Assembly (NCBI GenBank): GCA_964016885.1
Contig: OZ024752.1
Location: 24,304,001-24,368,000, forward strand
Source of the DNA: Eledone cirrhosa
Lineage: Eukaryota
Length of the DNA stretch: 64,000 bases
Reading direction: 5' to 3'
Part shown: positions 5,119-63,572 of the stretch, one piece after another
Numbering within the stretch: position 1 is the first letter of the stretch
Layout of the letters: every line of letters starts with the position of its first letter
The notes under the pieces: generated by a model
What the model was told of the DNA's origin: nothing
What the model saw: only the letters and a program-made list of their open reading frames with translations
Database searches by the model: none
Translations under genes and position numbers: made by a program

Positions 5119-7279
5119 ATGCGAAAACACAACATCGACTTCTCTACCAAGAACATCCCAATCCCACCGAAAAAACTTTACCTTCGGATGCTCACGCAAA
5201 AAATCGATCTATTTGCGAAAAGACTTAGATGGAGAACTTTTTTCTACGACAGATTTTGCGACAATCAGGACTTCGGTACCAAGGAGAGATTCGGATTTAT
5301 TACCTACAAATCTCCCCCCAGAACCCTTTGCTCTCACCCTTCGAGAATGACCTCTTCCAAATGGTCAAGAACCTTAAATTCAAACCCAGGCACAACCGAT
5401 TCCTACAAAAACTCCGTAGCAACTTAACAGAGTATGATAACACCAATGACATCATGGTGCATTCGGATAAAACTGGGAACCTATACTTTGTCAACCCCGA
5501 CAGATACCACACACTGATCAGGAGCAGCATAAACTCCACCTAAAAAAGGCTAACCACTCATGCATCGAGGACATTAATCGAGATGAACAACAAATTACCT
5601 CCAGCCTCGGGGTCGCTGACCGCACCGAACCCCTAGACCCACGGACACCATACTTCACACTGAAGGACCACAAATCCGATTTCGACCGTAAACCATCTAT
5701 CAGGCTTATAAACCCAACGAAGTCCGACATAAGGAGAATCAGCAAAAAAATCCTAGACCGCGTGATACCAAAAGTCAAGCAACACGCCCGACTTAGCCTA
5801 TGGATCAACACCCAGGAAGTTATTTCATGGTTCAGCAATATGGAGGATAAACGGGACACTAAATTTATCCAGTTCGACATAGAGAGCTACTATGCTTCAA
5901 TCACCTTACCCCTACTTACTGCCGCCTTGGACTTCGCCGAAGCACTTGTGCCCATCACCGACCAGGAAAGAAAAATCATCCTTCACGCCAGGAAGACAGT
6001 CTTACTCTTTGACAACTCCAAATGGATAAAAAGAGCTCCCGACTCACCCTTCGACGTCAGCATGGGCGCGACGGATTCGGCGGAGGTCACAGATCTTATA
6101 GGATTATTCCTTATAGTCAAACTCACCGATATGTTTCCTGCTTTCGGTGGTGGTTTGTACCGTGATGATGGGCTCCTTACCCTTAAAGGGTACAACCCCA
6201 GTAGTACAGATCGGGTCCGTAAACAATTAATCAGCTTCTTCCGCGACTGGGGATTTAAAATAACCCTACAAACGTCCCTGACCCGAGTTAATTTCCTGGA
6301 CGTTACCCTTGATCTTAATAATGACCTGTACTACCCATACAGGAAACCCAATGACAACCTGCACTACATCCACCGCCGATCTAACCATCCTAGGAACATC
6401 ACCAACAACCTGGTCAAAAATATCTCCCTCCGCATATCCCGTTTGTCAGCTAATGAGAAGATATTCGATGAACATGCGCCTTACTACAACCAGGCCCTCA
6501 GGCGGAGTGGTTTCCGGGAGGAAATATCCTACTGTCCAGCTCCCATTAGCGGAACCAGCAGGCGACTCCGCCGCTCACGCAATGTAACATGGTTCAATCC
6601 TCCCCACAACGCCGAGGTGACAACTCCCATCATGAACATTTTCTTTAGGCTCATTGAAAAACACTTCCCACCACAACACCGCTACCACAACATAATTAAC
6701 CAAAATACCATCAAACTCTCTTACAGCACTACACATAACTTCGCACAAAACATCGTCTCCTCCAGCAACAAAAAACTCAACCCCGATGGAAAAAACAACC
6801 CAAATAGCAGTGGAGAGCCGACGAGGAGATGCAATTGTCCTGATAGATCCAGTTGCCCCCTCGACAACAGATGCAGATACCGTAATGTGATCTACCAGTG
6901 CAACGTGAGCACGGACACCTCCAACAAAGCTTATATAGGATTAACCGCATGTGACTTCAAGACCCGGCTATACCAACACAGACATACCTTCCGAAACCCG
7001 GCCCGGCGTCACGCCACTACACTTTCGGGCCACATATGGGACCTCAAGGACAACAACATCAACTATGATCTCACTTGGAAATTACTGTCCAGAGCCAACT
7101 CTTACACGGGAGGACGCCGTCCGTGCAATTTATGCTCGGAGGAAACTTTACAAATGTTGTTTTCGACGGCCCAACTCCTAAACAAGAAAGATGAACTGGT
7201 TACTGCATGTAAACACCGATTACGTAGGACTTACCTCTCCCTCAAACCCCATAATGACCCGGGAGGGGAGGGGGGGTAG
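5119..7279 (+). pseudogene. PLE A RT + GIY-YIG polyprotein, disrupted twice (~5310 and ~5543)
   Basis: Pieces 5119-5427 (STKNIPIP..RLRWR), 5229-5543, 5762-7279 (FDIESYY, MGATDSAEVTDLIG, YRDDGL, NFLDVTL, GIY-YIG) are collinear with the intact ORF at 54214-56676. Confidence 0.9.
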
Positions 7280-12275: not shown

Positions 12276-12495
12276 CTTACTGGTTCCTATTACCCACTCT
12301 ACTACCTCAAGTATCGAGTACTTTGGTGCGTTATGGTCCACCTGGTTCCTTACCACATTTCCTTCGTTACATATATATATATATTCGGTCCAGTTTACAT
12401 ACGGGTCACTTTTACGACCTTTCAGACCTTTATTAGCTGGCAGGAGGTTGTATATTTTGTCGTTCCTGGGACGTTTAGCCCTAGGATGGGAAAAT

Positions 12496-12577
12496 GCTTC
12501 TCTGATGAGCTTTGGTTTTCCATCATGAATCCATCGGATTTATGAGGTTTTACAAAGCGAAACTGATCAGTAAGGGC
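12496..12577 (+). ncRNA. Type I hammerhead ribozyme (485-bp unit, copy 1)
   Basis: gcuucu CUGAUGA gcuuug..(ucaugaaucc-auc-ggauuuauga)..caaagc GAAA cugaucag UA agggc; stem I weak (G-U rich). Confidence 0.8.
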
Positions 12578-12980
12578 CACTAGAAGAGGTAAATATTTAT
12601 ATTATATTTTTTAATGTATTTTGAAAAATTGATTGAATTTTACTTGTTCTGCTTATCTTAATATTAAAGTTCTGGTGTATCAAATTAACACCATTGAACA
12701 ACCCTGAATCATAGACAACCTATGTATTTCTAGGGGTACCTAGTATCCCTGGACATATTAACTTATACCTTTTTCTCCGTCCGTTGAGAACAAATCTGTT
12801 GCTTTACTAGGCTGCTATTTCTTTAGTAGTAATTGTAGACAGCAAGTCTTTGATTTTCCCGCTTTTACTTCGGTCCAGTTTACATACGGGTCACTTTTAC
12901 GACCTTTCAGACCTTTATTAGCTGGCAGGAGGTTGTATATTTTGTCGTTCCTGGGACGTTTAGCCCTAGGATGGGAAAAT

Positions 12981-13062
12981 GCTTCTCTGATGAGCTTTGG
13001 TTTTCCATCATGAATCCATCGGATTTATGAGGTTTTACAAAGCGAAACTGATCAGTAAGGGC
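12981..13062 (+). ncRNA. Type I hammerhead ribozyme (485-bp unit, copy 2)
   Basis: Identical to 12496-12577. Confidence 0.8.
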
Positions 13063-13142
13063 CACTAGAAGAGGTAAATATTTATATTATATTTTTTAAT
13101 GTATTTTGAAAAATTGATTGAATTTTACTTGTTCTGCTTATC

Positions 13143-13326
<184 letters not shown>

Positions 13327-13341
13327 CGTATATATATATAT

Positions 13342-13902
13342 TAGTAATAATAATAAAATTGAAGACTAAAATCCAAAGAGGGCTCGATAAGGAAAATATA
13401 TATCAAATATATAAGAACCGTAGAGCAAATATTTATTAAAATAACAGATTAAAGTTTAAGCAAAGAATCGCTGCTTTCACCCTTAACGGGATCTTCTGAA
13501 ACTAACAAAGTCAATCTGTAAACGCAGAAGTGGATATTTCGAAAAACGTTGCAACCGGAGGAAGACAGGAAGACGATACTTTGGTTTGTAGAAACGTTCG
13601 CTGGCAAAGAACGGGAAAAAACGAATAATATGTCATTAATAGGAGCGGTGAAAAACAATTACGCGCAAAGACAGAACCACGTTTATGGTATAAAAGAGGT
13701 CGTAGACTAATGTTCTCTTAGGTGGTGCATAGAGACGTTCTCTGGCAATGAACGAAAAAACGAAGATAATAAGTCATATATGGAGCCGTGGAGAACAATA
13801 GCACGCAAAGACAAAACCACGTAAATGGTATAGCAGAAGTCGTAGATTAAAATTGAAATGCGCATAATAAAATACATGGAACTCATTTAACCATCTTTTG
13901 AT

Positions 13903-13966: not shown

Positions 13967-13971
<5 letters not shown>

Positions 13972-14093
13972 TAATATAACAGATTAAAGTTTAAGCAATA
14001 AATATTTGCTCTACAGTTCTTATATATTTGATATATATTTATCCTTATCGAGCCCTCTTTGGATTTTAGTCTTCAAATTTATTATTATTACTA
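13967..14093. repeat. ~127-bp TA-flanked mini-element (also 21503-21627, 35978-36107, 63436-63562)
   Basis: tttattaaaataacagattaaagtttaagcaataaatatttgctcta..ccttatcgagccctc..gtcttcaaatttattattattacta; four copies with the same ends, each within (TA)n. Confidence 0.85.
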
Positions 14094-14311
14094 TATATAC
14101 ATATATATATATATATTAGGTATAGGATTATCCTAGATGTAGTAATGGTTAATTACTACACTGTATATGGTTGACGTACGGTGAGAAGTTACTCTACGAG
14201 TTATGGAAGAATTGTTGAAGAAACTTAGTTCCTGATCCTTCTGTATTCCGGAGTGTATATAAAGAATGAATAATAACAGGTAGACATCATAAAAAGGTAA
14301 TTTATTCCGTG

Positions 14312-14423
14312 TGCTTACAAATGTTTCCACGGTGGTACTACAACCTAGTTATGCTATGTGCAAATTTACAACTATTTTCAGAACTCAAATATCCAATGCT
14401 GTGACCACTGTATCCTCAGAGCA
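14312..14423 (-). ncRNA. Type I hammerhead ribozyme, long stem II loop (family B, 3' pLTR)
   Basis: ugcu CUGAGGA uacaguggu..~65 nt..accaccgug GAAA cauuug UA agca, followed by AAUAAA. Confidence 0.7.
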
Positions 14424-14920
14424 GAATGGCTAAAATATACAATGTAAATACCCTTAAGTGGAGTTGTTGGAGAAGATAGAGTAGAAATGGAAGAGAGAAA
14501 AGTAGGGGAGAGGGAGAGAGAGAGAAAGATATGCAGGGGTTGGAGAAATAGGAGAGAGTGGTTTGTAGATATCTTAATCAAAATGTTATGGTAGGGGTTT
14601 TATTATACTGATTACTTTTGGAGAGATGCGTTGATAGTTAAGGTCGGAATTATTTATTGCCCTAGAGGGCAGGTTCATAGATGTGGAGAGGGAGGGAGGT
14701 AGGCCAAAGGCGAGAGAGAGAGAATGTAATGGATGTAGAGAGAGAGAGATAGAGAGGGGACAGACGAAGTCTATGTGGTGAGTGAACTTTGGGTTCGTAG
14801 TAGTAATCTGCGAATTGCACTGAGTTACCATTTATAGTGATAAGCAGTGTATTGTCTTGTAGTGTGGGGGAAGAGAAGGTGCTTAGCTAGAAAGCGATGT
14901 TATAGTTACGGGTTCGAATG

Positions 14921-17248
14921 TTAAGTTATTTTATAGTGAGAGAATTTAGCTTTTAGTTTGTGGTTGCAGTATAATGATCGTTCAATTCTATCGTTATGTA
15001 GTTTGTTTTTCGATTTTAATATGTAAAAGAGTTCGAGATTACATAACCTACAGTACTTCAATCCACTCCGATATGCACTTGCGCTGGAAAGTATATCCCA
15101 TTTTAAGGTGAACTGTTGGTTGCGTTCACGGAGTTGCCAGGTCTTGTTGGCGAGCGTGGTCACAAAACGGTGATTAGGATGTTTGATTGAGAATCGATGA
15201 CGGTACCAGCGAGATTTAAACGAGGTGGTGGTAGACCGATATAATACCATTTCTGGTCGTTCGATTCAACCGTGCATTGGTAAACAATGTTGGACTTTAG
15301 GCATTCATTCTTCAATGGACATCTTTCAGGTAGATGGCAGTTACATTCTTTGTTGTGGGTAGCGGGTATACCATGGATAGGTTGTGATAGCAGTACAGGT
15401 GGATTGTGTAATACCCGTCTCCCATTTAGTGGTTGGGAGGCAGATATTACGTTCTGCCCATCTGTTACTAAAATATTTTGTTTTATATTGTTGTTTAATT
15501 GCTTTAAGTTAAGTTTTTTTATGTATGCTTCAAGGTTTGGTGCCGTGGAGTATGATAGTCTAATAGTTTTAGAGTTCAGAATTTTGCTGTATTTATGGGA
15601 ACTAGGGAAATGTTTGTTGATTAACTTAAAGAATGAAAGAGATAGTTTTGTACTAATCGAGGCATTAAAAATAGTATTATACCAGATATACTTTCTACAA
15701 CGTGATTTATTTGGTGGTGATTTTCTATTGTTAGTATGTCTGGTGGTACTGTGTGCGTGCGCTTGTATTTTAGTCCCCCGGTTACGTATTCCTTTATTTC
15801 GTGTAGAGCTATGTGTGTTATGGAGATTCCTATCAATGTATTCTATTGTATCCCGGTGGTCGGCATTCCTTAATGCATTATTATAGTATTCAGTGTGTTC
15901 ACTAAAAATATCAGAGTTAGACGATAGGCGAGAGATTCTAAGAGGAATACTCCAGGGAACAGATTTGATCATGGAGAGTGGGTGGTTTGAGTTAAAGTTA
16001 ATATACGTAAGGTTCTCATTCATCTTGTAGAAGGGTCGTATCTGTCCGGTATTTAAATTAAGAGTTACGTCCAGAAAGTTTACTACTTTAAGGTTGTATT
16101 CGTATTTTATTTTTAGACCCAATTCACTAAAAGATTTTCTAATATTTTTCCGTAGCCTTTCAAGATTTGGGTTATTCAAGTTATTAACTAATAAGAGTCC
16201 GTCATCTCTGTATATCCCCCCCTGTAGATTACTAAATTTACTATGTAGTATGTGGGCTATGTAAATTCCCACAAGATCCGTGACCTCCGCCGAGTCGTTG
16301 GAACCCATGGTAATGTCGAAGCTTGTGGGTCTGTCCTTACGTTCCCAGTAGCAGTTATCAAACTTAATAATAGTTTTTCTAGCCTCGAGAATAATATTAA
16401 TTTCGTCCTCCGTTAGGTCGGAATTGACCTTAGCAAACGATAGGGCCTTACGTAAAGTGTTTGGTGAGATTGAAGAGTAGTATTCGTCTATGTCAAATTG
16501 TATAAACTTAGATTTATTCTTATTCTTAACGTTATTAAACCAGCGAATTGCTTCGCTAGTGTTGCCCCATAATTTAATTTCAATTTTCTTTTTCACTTGA
16601 GTTATTACTCTGTCAAGTATATGTTTGCTAATTTTTCCTATGTCTGATTTAGAAGGGCATATAAGTCTAATCTTAGGGTTAGAGTCAAAATTAACCTTAT
16701 GGTCCTTCAGGTTAAAGGTGGGGGTTGCGGGCATAATCGGCTCGGTTCTATCGTCTATCTTGAGATTCTTCACCACTTTGTATGCCTCGTTGTTAATATT
16801 TGCTAGCGTAGTTTCATTTGTTTTTCTATATTTTTTTGTGTAGTTCGTTGCGTATGAAGTTATTGTACGTATCGATATCCATGGTATACACGTTAGAGGT
16901 CTTGTCAGCTTTCACAACAATTCCATTGGTATTTTGCAGTCTTCGGAGTAGTGCTTTCATGTTGCTCTGCAGCTCATTATTTCTATGTTTGTTGAACTTA
17001 ATATTTATGGTCGTTTTCATTAAATCTTGTTCGAAGGCATCAAGATGAGGGTTTGTGGGTGGGTTTTTACATGATTTAAAACCATATGATTCAGACGAGT
17101 GACTGGCGCGTCCCTTATCGAAATGGAAAGCTTTCCATCGTACACGCCGAATGAAGTCATTATTGCGTTGAATCATACTAACAATATATTCTCTTTCGTT
17201 AGGTATAGGTATGTTTTTAAGTGACATACCTATATGATGCTTTTCCAT
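14921..17248 (-). pseudogene. PLE B RT + GIY-YIG polyprotein, two frameshifts (~16826, ~15235)
   Basis: SLKNIPIP, RRVRWKAFHF, FDIDEYY, MGSNDSAEVTDLVG, YRDDGL, CNCHLPERCPLKNEC, IVYQC..YYIG, CRLCNLE split over three ORFs. Confidence 0.9.
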
Positions 17249-17493
17249 ATTAAGGCCGTGTGTCGGTGTGGTTGCTCAACTGTGTAGGAGGCGATTATTA
17301 GGTATAGGATTATCCTAGATGTAGTAATGGTTAATTACTACACTGGATATGGTTGACGTACGGTGAGAGGTTACTCTACGAGTTATGGAAGAATTGTTGA
17401 AGAAACTTAGTTCCTGATCCTTCTGTATTCCGGAGTGTATATAAAGAATGAATAATAACAGGTAGACATCATAAAAAGGTAATTTATTCCGTG

Positions 17494-17605
17494 TGCTTAC
17501 AAATGTTTCCACAGTGGTACTACAGCCTAGTTATGCTATATGCAAATTTACAACTATTTTCAGAACTCAAATATCCAATGCTGTGACCACTGTATCCTCA
17601 GAGCA
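17494..17605 (-). ncRNA. Type I hammerhead ribozyme (family B, 5' pLTR)
   Basis: As 14312-14423 but with fully paired 9-bp stem II (uacaguggu/accacugug). Confidence 0.75.
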
Positions 17606-18295
17606 GAATGGTTAAAATATACAATGTAAATACCCTTTAGTGGGGTTGTTGGAGAAGATAGAGTAGAAAAGGAAGAGAGAAAAGTGGGGGAGAGGGAGAG
17701 AGAGAGAAAGATATGCAGGGGTTGGAGAAATAGGAGAGAGTGGTTTGTAGATATCTTAATCAAAATGTTATGGTAGGGGTTTTATTATACTGGTTACTTT
17801 TGGAGAGATGCGTTGATAGTTAAGGTCGGAATTATTTATTGCCCTAGAGGGCAGGTTCATAGATGTGGAGAGGGAAGGTTGTACTAATTTCAAGCTTATT
17901 AGCTATCATCAGCAATGTATACCTTCCTGCCAGATTGTTGAACGTATATACTTACCTTATGCATATTAACGGCTGAGTAGCCCAATTTGCATATCGAGTG
18001 GGTTAATCGGACGGGTGCACCGAAAACGATAAACTGAAAAAATGAAACGAATTTTCATTTCCCACTCTTAGTACGGCTGTTACTTAAATATAAGTATGTA
18101 CACGTACATACATATATGTATTCAGACGTACAGTAGTATGTATATATATATACATACATTCACACATATATATATGTACGTATGGATTCACAGAACATTT
18201 ATTATAATGCTCGGTGTGTTTGTAAACAAACATCCCGTATTAAGCCGTTGTGTCTAGCAACCATCGTTGCTCGTTTGTTCAACACTGACAAAGGA

Positions 18296-18338
18296 ACGCT
18301 GTACTAATTTCAAGCTTATTAGCTATCATCAGCAACGT
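18296..18338 (-). ncRNA. Minimal type I hammerhead ribozyme (420-bp unit)
   Basis: acguug CUGAUGA uagcu-aaua-agcuu GAAA uuag UA cagcgu. Confidence 0.78.
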
Positions 18339-18576
18339 ATACCTTCCTGCCAGATTGTTGAACGTATATACTTACCTTATGCATATTAACGGCTAAGTAG
18401 CCCAATTTGCATATCGAGTGGGATAATCGGCCGGGTGCACCGAAAACGATAAACGGAAAAAATGAAACGAATTTTCATTTCCCACTCTTAGTACGGCTGT
18501 TACTTAAATATAAGTAAGTACACGTACATACATATATGTATACAGACGTACAGTAGTATGTATATATATATACATA

Positions 18577-19072
18577 TAAAGGAAAGAAATGTTTCTCTTT
18601 GTTGAATATAAGTCACCAATTTAGCGGAGAAGTATTTAGAAGTTGGTAAGGTTGCCACGAGGAACCAGGTTTGGTAGAAAGATATGATAGGAATATTGAC
18701 AACGACTTTAGCTTGGTTTTACATTATTTATTAACACAGGTTACGAAGTGAATTAAGTTGGCATGCCAAGAGAAATGAAATAGATCAATTAAGATTACAA
18801 GAGAAAATACGGGCGACTGGCTGAAAGCGTTTGGCCAGGCTCGTAGGTAATGTTTTGTCGTTACATATTGTTTGTGCTTACGGAGCAAAAGAACAAGCGT
18901 GTTTTACCTTAGCATGGTCCAGCTGGAAGTGATAGCGTCCTCAAATCTTTGCGGGCTATTTCTCCCTCAGAGCGCGTAGGGATACATCCTCTTCTACTGG
19001 CGCTGATTGGCTGAGCTGAGCCAAATCACGCACAGAGAATGTATGTGAGCCCGCGGAATGTAGGTCACTACA
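18577..19072. mobile_element. Possible solo LTR inserted in the 420-bp repeat
   Basis: 496-bp unique insert with 4-bp duplication CATA on both sides relative to the empty site at ~18153; ends ..CTACA, begins TA (not TG); AATAAA on minus strand. Confidence 0.45.
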
Positions 19073-19169
19073 CATACATGCACACATATATATATGTACG
19101 TATGGATTCACCGAACATTTATTATAATGCTAGGTGTGTTTGTAAACAAACATATACATATACATATAC

Positions 19170-19605: not shown

Positions 19606-19652
19606 ATATACATATTTTTATATATATATATACATATATATTTATATTTATA

Positions 19653-20091
19653 TAAAATAAAGTTAAATAAAAGTCAAATGATTAAAATTTAGCTTCGTTT
19701 ATTACTGTTATATATATTTCAGTGACAGTCATCTTTGGCTGTGACCTCTTCAGGCAGTTTGAATTAGTATGGTATAGACAAGTACATATGTTGTTTAGGT
19801 GTATAATATTGTCAATACTCTGATATGCCCAGTTCCTTGTTGGGTTGTTATTTCAATGAGGAACTGGAGTCATGACTTCAGTTCCTCATTGAAATAACAA
19901 CCAACAAGGAACTGGGCATATCAGAGTATTGACAATATTATACACCTAAACAACATATGTACTTGTCTATACCATACTAATTCAAACTGCCTGAAGAGGT
20001 CACAGCCAAAGATGACTGTCATTGAAATATATATCGCAGTAATAAACGAAGCTAAATTTTAATCATTTGACTTTTATTTAACTTTATTTTA
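19653..20091. repeat. Spacer-less ~440-bp palindrome, each arm carrying a minimal hammerhead
   Basis: Centre gtcatgac at 19869-19876; arms near-perfect reverse complements. Confidence 0.9.
19986..20040 (+). ncRNA. Minimal type I hammerhead ribozyme (mirror copy 19704-19758 minus)
   Basis: acugc CUGAAGA ggucacag..cugucauu GAAA uauaua UC gcagu then AAUAAA. Confidence 0.72.
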
Positions 20092-20671: not shown

Positions 20672-20684
20672 GTATATATATATA

Positions 20685-21270
20685 TGTAAGTATGCATGTA
20701 TACGTACATACATATATGTATACAGACGTACAGTAGCATGCACATATATATATATATATACATATATACATACATATGCATACAGGTACACATACATATA
20801 TGCACGTATCAGTTTAGCGGCGCTAACGTCGCTTTGTTCGTTTGTAAACAAACTGAACAGCCTGAATTTATGCCATACGGTGTTAAGGCAACCACGTCAC
20901 CTTTTTGTTCAACACTGACACAGGAACGATGTACTAGTTTCAAGCTTGTTAGCTATCATCAGCACCGTTTACCCATCTGCCAGATAGTTGAACGTTCGAA
21001 AGTATATACTTTCCTTATGAAAATTAACGGCTGAGCAGCCTAATTTGCATATTGAGTGAGTTAAATCGGTCAGGCATACCGAAAACGATGAATTGAAACA
21101 AAATGAAAACGAAATTTCATTTCTCACTCTTAGTATGGCACTTACTTAAATGTAAGTATGCATGTATACGTACATACATATATGTATACAGACGTACAGT
21201 AGCATGCACATATATATATATATATACATATATACATACGTGGTTGCCTTAACACCGTATGGCATAAATT
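20685..21270 (-). mobile_element. Diverged relative of the 420-bp retrozyme-like repeat (466-bp period) with short inverted end
   Basis: 20685-20775 repeated from 21151; 21239-21270 is reverse complement of ~20865-20896; homologous to 17881-18300. Confidence 0.75.
20925..20969 (-). ncRNA. Minimal type I hammerhead ribozyme
   Basis: aacggug CUGAUGA uagcu-aaca-agcuu GAAA cuag UA caucguu; 7-bp stem I differs from 18296 copy yet still pairs; palindromic CUAG stem III. Confidence 0.82.
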
Positions 21271-21386
21271 TCTATTCCGTTTACCAATATATAATAACTT
21301 GTGTGTTAAACCTCAATTCTTTTAACTATATATATATATATATGTTTATATATATATACGTATGTTTATATATGTATATATATATG

Positions 21387-21507
<121 letters not shown>

Positions 21508-21629
21508 TAAAATAACATTAAAGTTTAAGCAATAAATATTTGCTCTACGGTTCCTATATATTTGATATATATTTATCCTTATCGAGCCCTCTTTGGATTT
21601 TAGTCTTCAAATTTATTAATATTACTATA

Positions 21630-21766
<137 letters not shown>

Positions 21767-21829
21767 CTACGCATATATATATACATATATATATACATAT
21801 ATATATATAAACATATATATATATATATA

Positions 21830-22389
21830 TAGTTAAAAGAATTGAGGTTTAACACACAAGTTATTATATATTGGTAAACGGAATAGAAAATGCTGACAAA
21901 TTGTTCACAGTTGAAAAATAGTTTAATTAGGAATAAAAGAGTATTAGTTATTGTATGGGTTAGTATTCAGTTGTGGTTTTAAGTTTTTAAGTTTTTACCG
22001 GTTGCGCATATCTAAATGCTTTTCAAAAATAATTTTGAGATAGTGCGTCCGTGTTGTTTGCTCTGATCTGATTAGTTTTGGGAATTCTACCTGTTTTTAT
22101 GTTAAAAAAGTGGCTCCAGCGGTATTAAAATAGATTTTACGCCAATTCGTTTTGCAAAAATTCTTGTTGTCAAAACAATTTTGATTGGTCGGTAGAGGTC
22201 ATGTGAATGTAAAAAATTGATTTTGCGCCAAATGTAGGTTTGTGTCGGCTGATTGAGAAATGACTCTTTCACAACAAATATGTGTGTGTGTGTGTGTAGT
22301 AGTAGTAAAGTGTTCGATGTTGTGATAATGGTTAGCAGGGATGTATGTGCGAACCGCAGCCTGTTGACAGTTCAAATGGCTATTAAGAT

Positions 22390-25718: not shown

Positions 25719-25750
25719 CATATATATATATGTATTTATATATATATATA

Positions 25751-28700
25751 TGTGGCTCAATGAAAAATTAATTTAATTAAACAATCAGAGCTATATTTCA
25801 TAAAACATGTCTATAGAATCACAAGATAAAATATATATTATTTCCTCTCCCAATTAGCATAATTAACTATATAAAAAATCGAATAGACCAGGCTATACGA
25901 ATAAGGCTTCCATGAAGGAATCTCCGACAAATAACCAAAACTAGCACTTCGCGTCGGCCGTAGCGGAATATTTATCGAATATTTCGACAGCGTAATCGTC
26001 TAGATACAGTCAACTAAGCAGAATAAGGTTTAAAATAAACTAGGAGAAAATAGAATACATTTAAATACCTCTACCATGGTTTCCTCCGTGTTTTGAGTTT
26101 TCCAATAATTATGTAATAATTATATAAACTCGAGCGCCGTATTCTTCAGGAAGCTCGCTCATATCTAGACATTAAATTTTCCAAAACGATAGCGCCAAGA
26201 ATTCATTTCAAAATGGCTAAAAATCGTGACGTAGTCGCGGTCAAGTTGGAAGGAGTGTGGTAGTTGCTTACTACTGGTGGCATTTTTGTTAAAAAGCACA
26301 GCACAATACAGCCAAATTTGTATCTCAACCTAGTGGTAGATTATTACATATAAAAGTTTACATATATATATACATACATATACATATACGTGTTTTGCAA
26401 CTGGTCACTTTGTGGCTCAATGAAAAATTAATAAATTAAACAATCAGAGCTATATATCATAAAATATGTCTATAGAATCACAAGATAAAATATATACTAT
26501 TTCCTCTCGCAATTAGCATAATTAACTATATAAAAAATCGAATAGACCAGCCTGTACGAATGAGGCTTCTATGACGGAATCCCCGACAAATAACCAAAAC
26601 TAGCGCTTTGCATCGGCCGTAGTGGAATATTTATCGAATATTTCGACAGCGTAATCGCCTACATACAGTCAACTGAGCAGAATTAGGTTTAAAATAAACT
26701 AAGAGAAAATAGAATACATTTAAATACCTCTACCATGGTTTCCTCCATGTTTTGAGTTTTCAAATAATTATGTAATAATTATATAAACTCGAGCGCCATA
26801 TTCTTCAGGAAGCTCGCTCATATCTAGTCATTAAATTTTCCAAAACGATCGCGCCAAGAACTCATTTGAAAATGTCTAAAAATCGTGACGCAGTCGCGGC
26901 CAAGTTGGAAGGGGTGTGGTAGTTGCTTACGACTGGTGGCATTTTTGCTAGAAAGCACAGCACAATACAGCCAAATTTGTATCTCAACCTAGTAAGAGAT
27001 TATTACATATAAAAGTTCACATATATATATATACACATACACATACATATACGTGTTTTTCAACTGGTCACTTTGTGGCTCAATGAAAAATTAATAAATT
27101 AAACAATCAGAGCTATATATCATAAAACATATCTATAGAATCACAAGATAAAATATATACTATTTTCTCTCCCAATTAGCATAATTAACTATATAAAATA
27201 TGGAATAGACCAGGCTATACGAATGAGGCTTCTATGAAGGAATCTCCGACAAATAACCAAAACTAGCGCTTCGCGTCGGCCGTAGCGAAATATTTATCGA
27301 ATATTTCGACAGCGTAATCGCCTAGATACTGTCAACTAAGCAGAATTAGGTTTAAAATAAACTAGGAGAAAATAGAATACATTTAAATACCTCTACCACG
27401 GTTTCGTCCGTGTTTTGAGTTTTCCAATATTTATGTAATAATTATATAAACTCGAGCGCCGGATTCTTCAGGAAGCTCGTTCATATCTAGACATTAAATT
27501 TTTGAAAACGATCGCGCCAAGAATTCATTTCAAAATGGCTAAAAATCGTAACATAGTCGCGGTCAAGTTGGAAGGAGTGTGGTAGTTGCTTACGACTGGT
27601 GGCATTTTTGCTAGAAAGCACAGCACAATACAGCCAAATTTGTATCTCAACCTAGTGGGAGATTATTACATTTAAAAGTTTACATATATATATACATACA
27701 CATACATATACGTGTTTTGCAACTGGTCACTTTGTGGCTCAAAGAAAAATTAATAAATTAAACAATCAGAGCTATATATCATAAAACATTTCTATAGAAT
27801 CACAAGATAAGTATATACTATTTCCTCTCCCAATTAGCATAATTAACTATATAAAAAATCGAATAGACCAGGCTATACGAATGAGGCTTCTATGAAGGAA
27901 TCTCCGACAAATAACCAAAACTAGCGCTTCGCGTCGGCCGTAGCGGAATATTTATCGAATATTTCGACAGCGTAATCGCCTAGATACAGTCAACTAAGCA
28001 GAATTAGGTTTAAAATAAACTAGGAGAAAATAGAATACATTTAAATACCTCTACCATGGTTTCGTCCGTGTTTTGAGTTTTCCAATAATTATGTAATAAT
28101 TATATAAACTCGAGCGCTATATTCTTCAGGACGCTCTATCATATCTAGACATTCAATTTTCCAAATCGATCGCGCCAAGAATTCATTTCAAAATGTCTAA
28201 AGATCGTGACGTAGTCGCGGTCAAGTTGGAAGGGGTGTGGTAGTTGCTTACGACTGGGGCATTTTTGCTAGAAAGCACAGCACAATACAGTCAAATTTGT
28301 ATCTCAACCTAGTAGGAGATTATTACATATAAAGGTTTACATATATATATATACACATACATATACGTGTTTTGCAACTGGTCACTTTGTGGCTCAATGA
28401 AAAATTAATAAATTAAACAATCAGAGCTATATATCATAAAACATATCTATAGAATCACACGATAAAATATATACTATTTTCTCTCCCAATTAGCATAATT
28501 AACTATATAAAATATCGAATAGACCAGGCTATACGAATGATGTTTCTATGAAGGAATCTCCGACAAATAACCAAAACTAGTGCTTCGCGTCGGCCGTAGC
28601 GGAATATTTATCGAATATTTCGACAGCGTAATCGCCTAGATACAGTCAACTAAGCAGAATTAGGTTTAAAATAAACTAGTAGAAAATATAATACATTTAA

Positions 28701-31700
28701 ATACCTCTACCATGGTTTCGTCCGTGTTTTGACTTTTCATATAATTATGTAATAATTATATAAACTCGAGCGCCATATTCTACAGGAAGCTCGCTCATAT
28801 CTAGACATTAAATTTTCCAAAACGTTCGCTCCAAGAATTCATTTCAAAATGGCTAAAAATCGTGACGCAGTCGCGGTCAAGTTGGAAAGGGTGTGATAGT
28901 TGCTTACGACTGCTGGCATTTTTGATAGAAAGCACAGCACAATACAGCCAAATTTGTATCTCAACCTAGAGGGAGATTATTACATATAAAAGTTTACATA
29001 TATATATACACATACATATACGTGTTTTGCAAGTGGTCACTTTGTGGCTCAATGAAAAATTAATAAATTAAACAATCAGAGCTATATATCATAAAACATA
29101 TCTATAGAATCACACGATAAAATATATACTATTTTCTCTCCCAATTAGCATAATTAACTATATAAAATATCGAATAGACCAGGCTATACGAATGAGGCTT
29201 CTATGAAGGAATCTCCGACAAATAACCAAAACTAGCGCTTCGCGTCGGCCGTAGCGGAATATTTATCGAATATTTCGACATCGTAATCGCCTAGATACAG
29301 TCAACTAAGCAGAATTAGGTTTAAAATAAACTAGGAGAAAATAGAATACATTTAAATACCTCTACCATGGTTTCGTCCGTGTTTTGACTTTTCATATAAT
29401 TATGTAATAATTATATAAACTCGAGCGCCGTATTCTTCAGGAAGCTCGCTCATATCTAGACATTAAATTTTCCAAAACGTTCGCTCCAAGAATTCATTTC
29501 AAAATGGCTCAAAATCGTGACGCAGTCGCGGTCAAGTTCGAAAGGGTGTGGTAGTTGATTACGACTGCTGGCATTTTTGCTAGAAAGCACAGCACAATAC
29601 AGCCAAATTTGTATCTCAACCTAGAGGGAGATTATTACATATAAAAGTTTACATATATATATACACACACATATACGTGTTTTGCAAGTGGTAACTTTGT
29701 GGCTCAATGAAAAATTAATAAATTAAACAGTCAGAGCTATATATCATAAAAAATATCTATAGAATCACAAGATAAAATATATACTATTTTCTCTCCCAAT
29801 TAGCATAATTAACTATATAAAATATCGAATAGACCAGGCTATACGAATGAGGCTTCTATGAAGGAATCTCCGACAAATAACCAAAACTAGCGCTTCGCGT
29901 CGGCCGTAGCGGAATATTTATCGAATATTTCGACATCGTAATCGCCTAGATACAGTCAACTAAGCAGAATTAGGTTTAAAATAAACTAGGAGAAAATAGA
30001 ATACATTTAAATACCTCTACCACGGTTTCGTCCGTGTTTTGAGTTTTCCAATAATTATGTAATAATTATATAAACTCGAGCGCCGGATTCTTCAGAAAGC
30101 TCGCACATTTCTAGACATTAAATTGTCCAAAACGATCGCGCCAAGAATTCATTTCAAGATGGCTAAAACTCGTGACGCAGTCGCGGTCAAGTTGGAAGGG
30201 GTGTGGTAGTTGCTTACGACTGGTGGCATTTTTGCTAGAAAGCACAGCACAATACAGCCAAATTTGTATCTCAACCTAGTGGGAGATTATTACATATAAA
30301 AGTTTACATATATATATACATACACATACATAAACGTGTTTTGCAACTGGTCACTTTATGGCTCAATGAAAAATTAAAAAATTAAACAATCACAGCTATA
30401 TATCATAAAACATGTCTATAGAATCACAAGATAAAATATATATTATTTCCTCTCCCAATTAGCATAATTAACTATATAAAAAATCGAATAGACCAGGCTA
30501 TACGAATGAGACTTCTATGAAGGAATCTCCGACAAATAACCAAAACTAGCGCTTCGCGTCGACAGGAGCGGAATATTTATCGAATAATTCAACAGCGTAA
30601 TCGACTAGATACAGTCAACAAAGCAGAATTAGGTTTAAAATAAACTAGGAGAAAATAGAATACATTTAAATACCTCTACCATGGTTTCGTCCGTGTTTTG
30701 AGTTTTCCAATAATTATGTAATAATTATATAAACTCGAGCGCCGGATTCTTCAGGAGGCTCGCTCATATCTAGACATAAAATTTTCCAAAACGATCGCGC
30801 CTAGAATTCATTTCAAAATGGCTAAAAATCGTGACGTAGTCGCGGGCAAGTTGGAAGGGATGTGGTAGTTGCTTACGACCGGTGGCATTTTTGCCAGAAA
30901 GCACAGCACAATACAGCCAAATTTGTATCTCAACCTAGTAGGAGATTATCACATATAAAAGTTTACATATATATATACACATACATATACGTGTTTTGCA
31001 ACTGGTCGCTTTGTGGCTCAATGAAAAATTAATAAATTAAACAATCAGAGCTATATATCATAAAATATGTCTAGAGAATCACAAGATAAAATATATACTA
31101 TTTTCTCTCCCAATTAGCATAATTAACTATATAGAAAATCGAATAGACCAGGCTATACGAATGATGCTTCTATGTAGGAATCTCCGACAAATAACCAAAA
31201 CTAGCGCTTCGCGTCGGCCGTATCGGAATATTTATCGAATATTTCGACAGCGTAATCGCCTCGATACAGTCAACTAAGCAGAATTAGGTTTAAAATAAAC
31301 TAGGAGAAAATAGAATACATTTAAATACCTCTACCATGGTTTCGTCCGTGTTTTGAGTTTTCCAATAATTATGTAATAATTATATAAACTCGAGCGCCGT
31401 ATTCTTCAGGAAGCTAAATCATATCTAGACATTAAATTTTCCAAAACGATCCATCCATGAATTCATTTCAAAATGGCTAAAAATCGTGACGTTATCTTGG
31501 TCAAGTTGGAAAGTGTGTGGTAGTTGCTTACGACTGGTGGCATTTTTGCTAGAAAGCACAGCACAATACAACCTAGTGGGAGATGATTACATATAAAGTT
31601 TACATATATATATACACATACATATACGTGTTTTTCAACTGGTCACTTTGTGGCTCAATGAAAAATTAATAAATTAAGCAATCAGAGTTATATATCATAA

Positions 31701-34700
31701 AACATGTCTATAGAACCACAAGATAAAATATATACTATTTTCTCTCCCAATTAGCATAATTAACTATATAAAAAATCGAATAGACCAGGCTATACGAATG
31801 AGGCTTCTATGAAGGAATCTCCGACAAATAACCAAAACTAGCGCTTCGCGTCGGCCGGAGCGGAATATTTATCGAATATTTCGACAGCGTAATCGCCTAG
31901 ATACAGTCAACTAAGCAGAATTAGGTTTAAAATAAACTAGGATAAAATAGAATATATTTAAATACCTCTACCATGGTTTCGTCCGTGTTTTGAGTTTTCC
32001 AATAATTATGTAATAATTATATAAACTCGAGTGACGTATTCTTCAGGAAGCTCGCTCATATCTAGACATTAAATTGTCCAAAACGATCGCGCCTAGAATT
32101 CATTTCAAAATGGCTAAAAATCGTGACGTAGTCGCGGGCAAGTTGGAAGGGGTGTGGTAGTTGCTTACGACTGGTGGCATTTTTGCTAGAAAGCACAGCA
32201 CAATACAGTCAAATTTGTATCTCAACCTAGTAGGAGATTATTACATATAAAAGTTTACATATATATATATATATACACATACACATACATATACGTGTTT
32301 TGCAACTGGTCACTTTGTGGCTCAATGAAAAATTAATAAATTAAACAATCAAAGCTATATATCATAAAACATGTCTATAGAATCACAAGTTAAAATATAT
32401 ACTATTTTCTCTCCCAATTAGCATAATTAACTATATAAAAAATCGAATAGACCAGGCTATACGAATGAGGCTTCTATGAAGGAACTCCGACAAATAACCA
32501 AAACTAGCGCTTCGCGTCGGCCGGAGCGGAATATTTATCGAATATTTCGACAGCGTAATCGCCTAGATACTGTCAACTAAGCAGAATTAGGTTTAAAATA
32601 AACTTGGATAAAATAGAATACATTTAAATACCTCTACCATGGTTTCGTCCGTATTTTGAGTTTTCCAATAATTATGTAATAATTATATAAACTCGAGCGC
32701 CGGATTCTTCAGGAAGCTCGCTCATATCTAGACATTAAATTTTCCAAAACGATCGCGCCTAGAATTCATTTCAAAATGGCTAAAAATCGTGACGTAGTCG
32801 CGGGCAAGTTGGAAGGGGTGTGGTAGTTGCTTACGACTGGTGGCATTTTTGCTAGAAAGCACAGCACAATGCAGCCAAATTGGTATCTCAACCTAGTGGG
32901 AGATTATTACATATAAAAGTTTACATATATATATACATACATATACGTGTTTTGCAACTGGTCACATTGTGGCTCAATGAAAAATTAATAAATTAAACAA
33001 TCAGAGCTATATATCATAAAACATGTCTATAGAATCACAAGATAAATATATACTATTTCCTCTCCCAATTAGCATAATTTACTATATAAAAAATCGAATA
33101 GACCAGGCTATACGAATGAGGCTTCTAGGAAGGAATCTCCGACAAATAACCAAAACTAGCGCTTCGCGTCGGCCGTAGCGGAATATTTATCGAATATTTC
33201 GACAGCGTAATCGCCTACATACAGTCAACTAAACAGAATTAGGTTTAAAATAAACTAGGAGGAAATAGAATACATTTAAATACCTCTACCATGGTTTCGT
33301 CCGTGTTTTGAGTTTTCCAATAATTATGTAATAATTATATAAACTCGAGCGCCGGATTCTTCAGGAAGCTCGCTCATACCTAGACATTAAATTTTCCAAA
33401 ACAATCGCGTCAAGAATTCATTTCAAAATGGCTAAAAATCGTGACGTAGTCGCGGTCAAGTTGGAAGGGTGTGGTAGTTGCTTACGACTGGTGGCATTTT
33501 TGCTAGAAAGTACAGCACAATACAGCTAAATTTGTATCTCAACCTAGTGGGAGATTATTACATATAAAAGTTTACATATATATGTACATACACATACATA
33601 TACGTGTTTTGCAACTGGTCACTTTGTGGCTCAATGAAAAATTAATAAATTAAACAATCAGAGCTATATATCATAAAACATGTCTATAGAATCACAAGAT
33701 AAAATATATACGTTTTCCTCTCCCAATTAGCATAATTAACTATATAAAAAATCGAATAGACCAGACTATACGAATGAGGCTTCTATGAAGGAATCTCCGA
33801 CAAACAACAAAAACTAGCGCTTCGCGTAGGCCGTGCTGGAATATTTATCGAATATTTCGACAGCGTAATCGCCTAGATACAGTCAACTAAGCAGAATTAG
33901 GTTTAAAATAAATTAGGAGAAAATAGAATACATTTAAATACCTCTACCATGGTTTCGTCCGTGTTTTGAGTTTTCCAATATTTATGTAATAATTATATAA
34001 ACTCGAGCGCCGTATTCTTCAGGAAGCTCGCTCATATCTAGACATTAAATTTTCCAAAACGATCGCGCCAAGAATTCATTTCAAAATGGCTAAAAATCGT
34101 GACGTAGTCGCGGTCAAGTTGGAAGGGGTGTGGTAGTTGCTTACGACTGGTGGCATTTTTGCTAGAAAGTAGAGCACGATACAGCCGAATTTGTACCTCA
34201 ATCTAGTAAGAGATTATTACATATAAAAGTTTACATATATATATACATACACATACATATACGTGTTTTGCAACTGGTCACTTTGTGGCTCAATGAAAAA
34301 TTAATAAATTAAACAATCAAAGCTATATATCATAAAACATGTCTATAGAATCACAAGATAAAATATATACTATTTCCTCTCCCAATTAGCATAATTAACT
34401 ATATAAAAAATCGAATAGACCAAGCTATACGAATGAGGCTTCTATGAAGGAATCTCCGACAAATAACCAAAACTAGCACTTCGCGTCGGCCGTAGCGGAA
34501 TATTTATCGAATATTTCGACAGCGTAATCGCCTAGATACAGTCAACTAAGCAGAATTAGGTTTAAAATAAACTAGGATAAAATAGAATACATTTAAATAC
34601 CTCTACCATGGTTTCGTCCGTGTTTTGAGTTTTCCAATATTTATGTAATAATTATATAAACTCGAGCGCCGTATTCTTCAGGAAGCTCGCTCATATCTAG

Positions 34701-35900
34701 ACATTAAATTTTCCAAAACGATCGCGCGAAGAATTCATTTCAAAATGGCTAAAAATCGTGACGTAGTCGCGGTCAAGATGGAAGGGGTGTGGTAGTTGCT
34801 TACGATGGTGGCATTTTTGCTAGAAAGCACCGCACAATACAGCCAAATTTGTATCTCAACCTAGTGGGAGATTATTACATATAAAAGTTTACATATATAT
34901 ATATACACATACACATACATATACGTGTTTTGCAACTGGTCACTTTGTGGCTAAATGAAAAATTAATAAATTAAACAATCAGAGCTATATATCAGAAAAC
35001 ATGTCTATAGAATCACCAGATAAATATATACTATTTCCTCTCCCAATTAGCATAATTAACTATATAAAAAATCGAATAGACCAGGCTATACGAATGAGGC
35101 TTCTATGAAGGAATCTCCGACAAATAACCAAAACTAGCGCTTCGCGTATGCCGTAGCGGAATATTTATCGAATATTTCGACAGCGTAATCGCCTACATAC
35201 AGTCAACTAAACAGAATTAGGTTTAAAATAAACTAGGAGGAAATAGAATACATTTAAATACCTCTACCATGGTTTCGTCCGTGTTTTGAGTTTTCCAATA
35301 ATTATGTAATAATTGTATAAACTCGAGCGCCGGATTCTTCAGGAAGCTCGCTCATATCTAGACATTAAATTTTCCAAAACGATCGCGCCAAGAATTCATT
35401 TCAAAATGTCTAAAGATCGTGACGTAGTCGCGGTCAAGTTGGAAGGGGTGTGGTAGTTGCTTACGACTGGTGGCATTTTTGCTAGAAAGCACAGCACAAT
35501 ACAGCCAAATTTGTATCTCAACCGAGTGGGAGATTATTACATATAAAAGTTTACATATATATATACATATACATACATATACGTGTTTTGCAACTGGTCA
35601 CTTTGTGGCTAAATGAAATATTAATAAATTAAACAATCAGAGCTATATATCATAAAACATGTCTATAGAATCACAAGATAAATATATACTATTTCCTCTC
35701 CCAATTAGCATAATTAACTATATACAAAATTGAATAGACCAGGCTATACGAATGAGGCTTCTATGAAGGAATCTCCGACAAATAACCAAAACTAGCGCTT
35801 CGCGTCGGCCGTATCGGAATATTTATCGAATATTTCGACAGCGTAATCGCCTAGATACAGTCAACTAAGCAGAATTAAGTTTAAAATAAACTAGGAGAAA

Positions 35901-35903
<3 letters not shown>
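25751..35903 (-). repeat. Tandem satellite, ~660-bp monomer, 15 complete + ~0.45 units, each complete unit with a hammerhead motif on the minus strand
   Basis: Monomer starts ~25751, 26411, 27074, 27733, 28388, 29043, 29698, 30357, 31012, 31649, 32316, 32968, 33625, 34284, 34946, 35604; both ends abut (TA)n; no ORFs. Confidence 0.97.
30672..30759 (-). ncRNA. Type I hammerhead ribozyme in satellite monomer 8 (representative; monomer 1 at 26067-26154)
   Basis: gccuc CUGAAGA a-uccg-gcgcucgaguuu..aaacucaaaaca-cgga-c GAAA ccaugg UA gaggu. Confidence 0.8.
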
Positions 35904-35976
<73 letters not shown>

Positions 35977-36115
35977 ATTTATTAAAATAACAGATTAAAG
36001 TTTAAGCAATAATTATTTGCTCTATGGTTCTTATATATTTAATGATATATATTTATATTTATCGAGCCCTCTCAGGATTTTAGTCTTCAAATTTATTATT
36101 ATTACTATATATACA

Positions 36116-56676: not shown

Positions 56677-57005
56677 TTGAAAGAGCTCAACTAAATGTAT
56701 ATGGGTTTATAAAATCATACATATATATGTATATACATAAATATAAAATTAATACACACATACAGTACAAAAATACGAATATTTCCGTGAAAATAGGAGC
56801 AAAATAATGTAGATAAATCTACCAAGAGTTTACGGTAGTGTCCAATCCGTATGAAGAACTCAATGTATTCCGGATATCATGGAAAGAAGAGATGTAATGA
56901 AAAATCACTTTCGGTGAAAGATAAACGGTATACAGAGTCAAGATAAAATATTAAACAAATAATGAATAAAACAATGAAACAGTTCCTTATATTAAACAAA
57001 AAAAG

Positions 57006-61710: not shown

Positions 61711-61789
61711 TATATATATATATACATAAATATAGAAAAATATATATAAATATATATACATATATATATATACATATATATATATATAC

Positions 61790-63192: not shown

Positions 63193-63440
<248 letters not shown>

Positions 63441-63572
63441 TAAAATAACAGATTAAAGTTTAAGCAATAAATATTTGCTCTACTGTTCTTATATATTTGA
63501 TATATATTTATCCTTATCGAGCCCTCTTTGGATTTTAGTCTTCAAATTTATTATTATTACTAAATATACATA

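What the first reader, a model, noticed from the sequence alone, without database searches (positions are those of the whole stretch)
17870..17920. PLE B 5' end is fused to a retrozyme almost exactly at its hammerhead cleavage site
Seen: PLE B pLTR sequence stops at ~17875-17879 and, with no TA spacer, the 420-bp repeat begins within a few nt of the predicted GUA cleavage site (17882/17881), in the same orientation. The 3' strand of stem I is missing or altered in this copy. Inference: the PLE RT jumped from its own RNA onto the end of a self-cleaved retrozyme RNA and then copied more than one unit (circular or multimeric template). That would be direct evidence of trans-mobilisation. The exact junction is ambiguous by ~10 nt.
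Basis: partly seen in the sequence, partly recalled or inferred. Interest (0 to 1): 0.7.

Follow-up and report, generated by a model that had tools for sequence, protein, structure and literature searches.

The report
Penelope element fused to retrozyme end
A Penelope-type jumping gene is joined without a spacer to a 420-base hammerhead-ribozyme repeat within two bases of its predicted self-cut site, likely because the jumping gene's enzyme switched onto that RNA during one insertion, but this single junction could also be a later deletion scar, so it hints at rather than proves what spreads such repeats.

Summary
Observation confirmed. A Hydra-type Penelope-like element (PLE B, minus strand, 14114-17875) abuts 1.84 units of a 420-bp type I hammerhead repeat in the same orientation, with no (TA)n between. 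The composite sits in (TA)n, and no unit sequence lies on the far side. PLE identity ends at 17875, repeat identity resumes at 17880, and the predicted cut is 17882/17881.

New here: the nine bases after the cut match neither parent cleanly. They equal a two-step fold-back copy of the ribozyme's own stem I arm (2 of 4096 six-base fillers fit), ending in a 3-base microhomology with the PLE.

The seven other hammerhead-bearing elements measured in the window end 71-322 nt past their cut, and this family normally starts about 210 nt away. Other spacer-free fusions occur in the window. The shared GGA is one of only three in the unit. No genome was available, and the laid runs neither span the junction nor show ends piling at the cut.

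Best reading (0.45): one integration with a switch onto a cleaved retrozyme multimer. Suggestive, not direct proof; PLE mobilisation of retrozymes is already proposed in print.

The parts
14092..14113 (.). (TA)n tract at the 3' end of PLE B (left target side)
14114..17295 (-). PLE B unit (3182 bp): 3' pLTR 14114-14693 and RT + C-terminal GIY-YIG ORF (about 17248-14921, two frame changes near 16870 and 15245) with RWK, DKT, YRDD, CxCx5C, YIG and CxxC motifs
14312..14423 (-). PLE B's own type I hammerhead, 3' copy; predicted cut 14316/14315, 202 nt upstream of the element's DNA 3' end
17296..17875 (-). 5' pLTR of PLE B, 569 of 580 identical to the 3' copy; own hammerhead with 9-bp stem II and long loop, predicted cut 17498/17497; 17875 is a truncation point 377 nt upstream of that cut
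17873..17881 (-). Junction: 3-nt microhomology shared by both parents (17873-17875), 4 bases matching neither parent cleanly (17876-17879), 2 bases matching the retrozyme just past the cut (17880-17881); all nine equal a two-step reverse-complement copy of the stem I 5' arm (17913-17916 and 17923-17927)
17882..18301 (-). Retrozyme unit 1, cut site to cut site, 420 bp, longest ORF 53 aa, fold z-score -7.58; hammerhead core 17882-17920 lacking its natural stem I 3' strand
18293..18340 (-). Complete type I hammerhead at the unit 1/unit 2 boundary, predicted cut 18302/18301; U-U at the base of stem II and a wobble, near-palindromic helix III (dimer type)
18302..19153 (-). Retrozyme unit 2, 5'-truncated (0.84 unit), in two pieces 18302-18576 and 19073-19153
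18577..19072 (-). 496-bp later insertion with a 4-bp duplication, LTR-like start on the minus strand; repeated elsewhere in the genome by read depth
19152..19654 (.). (TA)n tract at the far end of the composite (right target side)
20681..21270 (-). Control: third, 82% identical copy of the family with an intact hammerhead; 3' end after (TA)n 251 nt past its cut; 33-bp inverted piece at its 5' end fused without spacer to another repeat

Best explanation
A Hydra-type Penelope element and 1.84 units of an unrelated 420-base hammerhead repeat lie fused head to tail in one TA tract, likely laid down in a single integration in which the element's reverse transcriptase left its own RNA and likely continued on the self-cleaved 3' end of a retrozyme multimer. 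Steps. (1, shown) PLE B has its 3' end at (TA)n and runs 1.18 units, stopping in a purine-rich stretch at 17875. (2, inferred) A retrozyme transcript of at least two units had been cut at its last hammerhead but not at the inner one, as weak dimer-type hammerheads allow. (3, inferred from sequence) Its RNA-sense end was extended by a few bases along the freed stem I arm, with one slip between two AC repeats, by the PLE enzyme or a host polymerase of the theta type; this left three bases complementary to the stalled cDNA end. (4, inferred) Synthesis resumed through 1.84 units and was resolved into the right-hand TA tract. (5, shown) An LTR-like sequence inserted later into unit 2.
For: Same orientation and correct polarity; TA only at the outer ends; no unit sequence beyond PLE B. 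Join 0-2 nt from the cut, 0.7% under a uniform null, while 7 of 7 other hammerhead-bearing 3' ends measured lie 71-322 nt past their cut. The nine bases past the cut fit a fold-back copy: 2 of 4096 six-base fillers, or 1 of 256 four-base fillers if the first two bases are natural; a Watson-Crick A stands where the natural strand has a wobble G. Ages are compatible. Both units share two letters that over 99% of laid family depth in X1 lacks (17887/18307, 18052/18472), so they came from one template lineage. Papers: PLE RT shows minor priming at template 3' ends (PMC11167929); multimeric retrozyme RNAs exist for weak hammerheads (PMC7229834); an engineered R2 RT appears able to capture cyclic-phosphate ends (PMC12140624); self-priming was inferred for PLEs (PMC3846280).
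Against: One junction only, not confirmed by any listed read or contig. The fold-back test was devised after seeing the sequence, needs the unit-2 allele of the arm (it fails on unit 1's present allele), and the natural strand is itself complementary to the arm. Fold-back is easiest from a paired end two bases past the cut (PMC11292364 abstract), which would mean the molecule was uncut there. The shared GGA is one of three in the unit and the register ties for best at 7 of 11 matches (3 of 420 registers), so microhomology alone can pick this spot. PLE RT mainly starts internally and hammerhead cleavage is not needed in vitro (PMC11167929). Depth is even across the intact cut site (ratios 1.005 and 1.004), and none of the 24 loose-end rows shown, of 1447, lies at 17880 or 18300. 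Other spacer-free fusions exist (21270, 13463, 13853). No sequence is shared between the unit and any PLE end in the window.
Confidence: 0.45

Rival explanations
1. Two separate insertions in one TA tract were later fused by a deletion repaired by end joining with a short templated filler; the closeness to the cut is chance, helped by the hairpin-prone stem I region.
For: The window is a nest of insertions in (TA)n with several spacer-free fusions. The family normally starts near unit position 18085-18089 after (TA)n (copy 3; one X4 contig and one X16 joint). Microhomology plus an inverted templated filler is the described signature of SD-MMEJ/theta-mediated joining (abstracts of PMC5728401 and PMC11292364). 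Microhomology-mediated deletions disable many Penelope copies (PMC3846280). A PLE B-family 3' end is joined to the unit's TA patch in X1 and X2 contigs, so neighbours of this kind do occur.
Against: Needs the break to fall 0-2 nt from the cut (0.4-0.7%) or 0-9 nt from it (2.4-7.5%) by chance. The filler's template lies 32-46 nt away, slightly beyond the 30 nt reported for SD-MMEJ. The ages of the two parts do not differ, though that test is weak.
Confidence: 0.27
2. One integration, but the enzyme switched by microhomology onto an uncut or circular retrozyme RNA at the GGA nine bases past the cut and went round 1.84 times; the filler arose at the switch or by later hairpin correction. This is trans-mobilisation without any role for the cleaved end.
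For: Identity runs 2 nt past the cut; the inner hammerhead was copied through without a scar; the GGA site is 1 of 3 in the unit; circles are the main retrozyme RNA form (PMC7229834); 4-6 nt homology switches were proposed for the carnation retroviroid-like DNA (PMC11722881 passage).
Against: Needs two substitutions within 3 nt in DNA only 2-3% diverged, both to the base complementary to the stem I arm, or a separate correction event.
Confidence: 0.17
3. RNA ligation came first: RtcB joined the retrozyme's cyclic-phosphate end to a broken 5'-OH PLE RNA, as for U6/LINE-1 chimeras, and the chimeric RNA was then retrotransposed.
For: Geometry is that of U6/L1 (PMC6789731 passages); RtcB ligates retrozyme ends in vitro (PMC7229834). 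In the ungapped register the PLE also matches GTA at 17881-17883.
Against: Predicts PLE sequence directly after GUA; instead 3 of the 5 bases at 17876-17880 differ from the PLE 3' copy. An X4 contig of the PLE family stops matching at 17875, giving no sign of a family variant with these bases.
Confidence: 0.06
4. The junction is an assembly join between two repeats.
For: No listed contig or read spans it; the best runs hold only 0.54-0.56 of the words.
Against: Both elements carry private differences right up to the join; the filler has a sequence logic of its own; long TA tracts and diverged tandem copies are resolved in the window, which suggests long reads (inference).
Confidence: 0.05

Closest known systems
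Hydra clade of Penelope-like elements (Craig et al. 2021, PMC8557442)
   Same: C-terminal endonuclease, RWK, DKT, CxCx5C linker, CxxC and CxH motifs, hammerhead in the pLTR, (TA)n target, partial tandem
   Different: Unit is 3.2 kb (most are under 3 kb); the 5' neighbour is an unrelated hammerhead repeat, not a copy of itself
Metazoan non-LTR retrozymes (PMC7229834; bioRxiv 10.64898/2026.07.22.740005)
   Same: Head-to-tail 420-bp unit with a type I hammerhead, no ORF, stable fold, high copy; U-U at the base of stem II as in axolotl HHR_Amex2; PLE mobilisation already proposed
   Different: Those papers argue from co-occurrence, shared ribozymes and pLTR homology; the parts read describe no retrozyme fused to a PLE 5' end at the cut site. 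No pLTR homology was found for this unit in the window
U6/LINE-1 chimeric pseudogenes (PMC6789731)
   Same: A small RNA with a cyclic-phosphate 3' end sits at the 5' truncation point of the element in the same orientation; template switch and RNA ligation are the two rival routes
   Different: Here 6 bases separate the cut from certain PLE sequence, and more than one unit was copied
Penelope capture of other sequences in Adineta vaga (PMC3846280)
   Same: In-trans mobilisation, microhomology 5' joins, palindromes read as self-priming, proposed template jumps
   Different: Cargo there lies between the element's own pLTRs, and no cross-mobilisation between families was seen
SD-MMEJ / polymerase theta templated insertions (PMC5728401, PMC11292364)
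   Same: Short inverted filler copied from a nearby hairpin arm, creating microhomology
   Different: Here the hairpin is a ribozyme stem and the end coincides with its cut site

Membership tests
Hydra-clade PLE (PLE B) | RWK motif and DKT in place of DKG | tested here: met
   RWK at 17140, DKT at 16906; definition read
Hydra-clade PLE (PLE B) | CxCx5C linker before a C-terminal GIY-YIG endonuclease with CxxC and CxH | tested here: met
   CNCHLPERC at 15345, YIG at 15243, CRLC at 15052, CNH near the end; Pfam gave no hit for 3 of 3 proteins scanned
Hydra-clade PLE (PLE B) | Hammerhead in pLTR and (TA)n target | tested here: met
   Motif with 9-bp stem II at 17601 (the 3' copy at 14419 has one stem change); TA at 14092-14113; no Rfam score
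Hydra-clade PLE (PLE B) | Placement in the Hydra RT clade by phylogeny | not tested
   No reference set fetched
Non-LTR retrozyme (420-bp unit) | Tandem unit of 150-450 bp with a type I hammerhead and no coding capacity | tested here: met
   420 bp; motif with 6-7 bp stem I in two copies; longest ORF 53 aa
Non-LTR retrozyme (420-bp unit) | Highly self-paired monomer | tested here: met
   -136.3 kcal/mol, z -7.58, 0 of 100 shuffles as stable
Non-LTR retrozyme (420-bp unit) | Two consecutive units with complete hammerheads ('active' by the 2026 preprint) | tested here: not met
   Only the inner hammerhead of this array is complete; this lowers 'active copy', not family membership
Non-LTR retrozyme (420-bp unit) | Self-cleavage and expression as linear and circular RNA | not testable with these tools
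   No RNA holder listed
Non-LTR retrozyme (420-bp unit) | Homology to the pLTR of a PLE in the same genome | tested here: inconclusive
   None within the window; the genome is not held
U6/L1-type RtcB chimera | Exact join of the cyclic-phosphate end to element sequence | tested here: not met
   3 of 5 bases at 17876-17880 differ from the PLE
SD-MMEJ / theta-type junction | Filler templated from a repeat within about 30 nt, plus microhomology | tested here: inconclusive
   Template 32-46 nt away, 3-nt microhomology, 2 of 4096 fillers fit; post hoc test

The most novel reading that the evidence does not exclude
The junction is a molecular footprint of a Penelope reverse transcriptase capturing a hammerhead-cleaved retrozyme RNA: the cut end primes itself along the ribozyme's freed stem I arm, makes its own microhomology and is handed the stalled cDNA. 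Hammerhead cleavage would then provide a second, cross-family entry route into PLE retrotransposition, beside the normal internal start, and such joins would be countable genome-wide.
Probability: 0.25. Interest if true: 0.65.

Novelty: new variant of a known kind. Interest (0 to 1): 0.4.

Why it matters
Which enzyme spreads animal retrozymes, and what the hammerhead does for Penelope elements, are both open; the papers read rest on co-occurrence and homology, and one in-vitro study found cleavage dispensable. A class of PLE-5'/retrozyme-3' joins at the cut site would name the partner enzyme and show cleaved ends in use. This genome has at least four Hydra-type PLE ORFs and several hammerhead repeats in 64 kb, and the family has about 30 times the PLE's depth, so the question is directly countable once the assembly is at hand. 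One junction does not settle it.

Tried and rejected
No whole genome is held, so the genome-wide end census could not be run.

Rfam: no hammerhead among the 150 rows shown of 246 for the window, nor in two focused scans. Pfam: 0 families for 3 of 3 PLE proteins.

The hammerhead motif had 0 exact matches in metagenome and viral contigs. A four-protein alignment found 4 loci of 1.0-2.6 kb, too short to show 5' neighbours and with no DNA match to the window. No RNA holder listed.

Read laying (4 of 18 listed runs): the begin/end piles in X16 (17987, 18053, 18404/7, 18560, 18621, 18765) and the mixed loose ends at 18473 coincide with AATT and GCATGC sites (18560 through a family variant). They are read as library cut sites, not element ends. 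This array also has AATT at 17886, so such reads cannot span the junction. Contigs almost never ran on into flanks (share 0 in X1 and X2), so the lack of a pile at the cut is weak evidence.

Simple insertion of PLE B into an array was rejected: no unit sequence lies on the left. A 3-nt slip giving PLE sequence to 17879 needs no substitution but is not a repeat-unit slip and leaves the inverted match unexplained; it is kept as possible.

Look-ups of earlier findings by sequence, genome and relatives were empty.

Full report
WHAT IS THERE. All parts read on the minus strand. PLE B has its 3' end at 14114 beside (TA)n, a 3182-bp unit, and a second copy of its 3' region (5' pLTR, 17296-17875) that matches 14114-14693 at 569 of 580 positions. 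Its protein, broken by two frame changes, carries RWK, DKT, YRDD, CxCx5C, YIG and CxxC, the marks listed for the Hydra clade (PMC8557442, section 11 read whole; other passages). It has its own hammerhead motif with predicted cuts at 17498/17497 and 14316/14315. So its DNA 3' end lies 202 nt past its own cut, and its 5' end at 17875 is a truncation point, not an RNA end. Directly beside it begins a 420-bp unit with a type I hammerhead (cuts 17882/17881 and 18302/18301), no ORF over 53 aa and a very stable fold (z -7.58). The array runs 1.84 units to 19153, is split by a 496-bp LTR-like insert with a 4-bp duplication, and ends in (TA)n. No unit sequence lies left of PLE B. Rfam did not score these hammerheads; they rest on motif and stem inspection, and cleavage is predicted, not shown.

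THE JUNCTION. PLE identity is certain to 17875 and retrozyme identity from 17880, two bases past the cut. No ungapped split from 17866 to 17885 leaves fewer than two mismatches. Three things stand out. First, both parents share GGA at 17873-17875, and in this register the PLE 11-mer matches the unit at 7 positions, a score reached by 3 of 420 registers; the unit holds only three GGA sites. Second, 17873-17879 is the exact reverse complement of 17921-17927, the upper stem I arm; 1 of 256 four-base fillers would give such a match within 60 nt. Third, all nine bases after the cut equal the complement of the arm read in two steps with one slip between AC repeats; 2 of 4096 six-base fillers pass this test. 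The test was made after seeing the sequence, and it passes on unit 2's allele of the arm but not on unit 1's present allele. It shows that nothing forces the retrozyme template to have continued past GUA, since a copy of the arm gives the same first two bases as the natural strand. It does not show that it stopped there: polymerase theta starts stem-loop extension from two terminal pairs (PMC11292364, abstract), which fits an end two bases past the cut.

HOW UNUSUAL IS THE POSITION. A random join falls 0-2 nt past the cut in 0.7% of cases and 0-9 nt in 2.4%. Requiring 3 nt of microhomology gives 4.2% over all PLE breaks, 7.5% in the purine-rich stretch, and 1 in 3 for the actual break (the 4-nt row did not complete). 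Of eight hammerhead-bearing 3' ends measured in the window, seven lie 71, 92, 161, 187, 202, 251 and 322 nt past their cut, and only this one is at it. Left out were PLE A, PLE D and the inverted pair at 19650-20075, for which my scans found no convincing ribozyme. This matches internal initiation by a purified PLE protein, where hammerhead mutants still insert and 3'-end priming is a minor product (PMC11167929, parts 1-2 of 4). The family's usual start appears to be near unit position 18085-18089 after (TA)n: copy 3, one X4 contig and one X16 joint of 201 reads from 5 starts. A missing TA spacer is not special by itself: copy 3 is fused through a 33-bp inverted piece and 2 shared bases to another repeat at 21270, 66 nt from its cut, and further spacer-free joins lie at 13463 and 13853.

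AGE AND TEMPLATE. The pLTRs differ at 11 of 580 sites and the units at 11 of 362 (one of these at the insert's edge); Fisher p 0.27. Both units share two letters that over 99% of X1 family depth lacks. Five of the seven differences in the first 277 bases fall on rows shown, and at each the other unit's letter is the majority in X16 (at 18395 only 15% in X1, where such contigs can lie on the other unit). The units therefore look like copies of one template that then mutated. One shared letter turns the family's palindromic helix III into a wobble form (duplex -0.2 against -4.8 kcal/mol), which would weaken dimer cleavage and favour partly cut multimers (inference; multimers are reported for weak axolotl hammerheads, PMC7229834, parts 2-4 of 6).

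OUTSIDE DATA. No genome is held. Four of 18 listed runs were laid. Family depth is about 34 times the PLE pLTR's (not a copy number). Depth is even across the intact cut (ratios 1.005 and 1.004), so most copies do not end there. None of the 24 loose-end rows shown, of 1447, is at the cut, but contigs hardly ever ran into flanks and the RAD piles are restriction sites, so the test is blunt. None of the 24 pieces shown, of over 31000, spans the junction. X1 and X2 each show a contig joining a PLE B-family 3' end to the unit's TA patch (18578 to 17300; side length not given), so the two families do meet by ordinary insertion. Collection scans found nothing usable.

MECHANISM. Best reading, 0.45: one integration with a switch onto the cleaved end of a linear multimer, sealed by a short fold-back filler and a 3-base microhomology. 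Shown: anatomy, polarity, ages, filler logic. Inferred: single event, cleaved template, who made the filler. Rivals: later deletion with an end-joining scar, 0.27; microhomology switch onto an uncut or circular RNA, 0.17; RtcB ligation as for U6/L1, 0.06 (PMC6789731, passages); assembly join, 0.05. These weights are my judgement. The two single-integration switch readings together (about 0.6) both mean that a PLE enzyme copied this retrozyme; only the first gives the cut a role.

WHAT IS KNOWN. PLE mobilisation of animal retrozymes was proposed in PMC7229834 and argued from co-occurrence and pLTR homology in bioRxiv 10.64898/2026.07.22.740005 (parts 1-3 of 5; its supplements are closed and may list fused loci). 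In-trans capture, microhomology 5' joins and self-priming are described for rotifer Penelopes, with no cross-family mobilisation seen (PMC3846280, passages). A homology-guided switch was proposed for the carnation retroviroid-like DNA (PMC11722881, passage). Also seen: PMC4209133 part 1 of 4, PMC6431247 passages, PMC5728401 abstract, PMC12140624 passages. Searches for retrozyme/Penelope/hammerhead (21 papers), Penelope-like/template switch/hammerhead/chimeric (1), Penelope/template jump/in trans (22) and non-LTR retrozymes/PLEs/junction (0) showed no title or read passage describing a retrozyme fused to a PLE at the cut site; most listed papers were seen only as listings, and subscription papers are not covered.

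VERDICT. Real junction, plausible and now better-specified mechanism, one example, not proof. New variant of a known kind; interest 0.4.

Noticed in passing
window 25750-35903, minus strand: About 15.5 tandem copies of a 660-bp type I hammerhead unit with TA at both ends; 3' end 322 nt past the first cut, 5' end stopping about 19-24 nt short of the next cut site.
   Followed up: partly
window 12384-13149, plus strand: 485-bp hammerhead unit present as 1.58 units with 281-bp repeats that are 100% identical, TA at both ends: a young non-coding element built like a PLE.
   Followed up: partly
window 18577-19072: 496-bp insert with a 4-bp duplication in the retrozyme's TA-rich patch; looks like a solo LTR; part of it (18974-19097) has about ten times the depth of the rest.
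   Followed up: partly
window 13969-14088, 21505-21622, 35980-36102, 63438-63557, inverted 13347-13437: A 120-bp element flanked by TA in four direct copies and one inverted copy with a 35-bp inverted tail; no hammerhead seen.
   Followed up: no
window 5471-7279, 15160-16911, 36336-38411, 54214-56706: Four Hydra-type PLE proteins 43-47% identical to PLE B's, with Asn/Ser/Thr/His-rich stretches of different lengths between RT and endonuclease, recalling the Asn-rich inserts of rotifer Penelopes; the 830-aa frame at 54214-56706 is uninterrupted.
   Followed up: no
window 21238-21330: 33-bp inverted piece of the retrozyme joined by 2 shared bases to an inverted 62-75 bp piece of another repeat (21815-21889): a PLE-style complex 5' end on a retrozyme copy.
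   Followed up: partly
window 18307 and 18328: Most laid family sequence has a palindromic helix III and a CUGACGA core; this array carries the rarer wobble helix III and CUGAUGA.
   Followed up: partly
window 61024-61748 and 19650-20075: Short hammerhead-like elements in tandem-plus-inverted and head-to-head arrangements.
   Followed up: no
L002 75 and 2522: A related PLE ORF in a public contig flanked by two direct copies of a hammerhead with a long perfect stem I.
   Followed up: no
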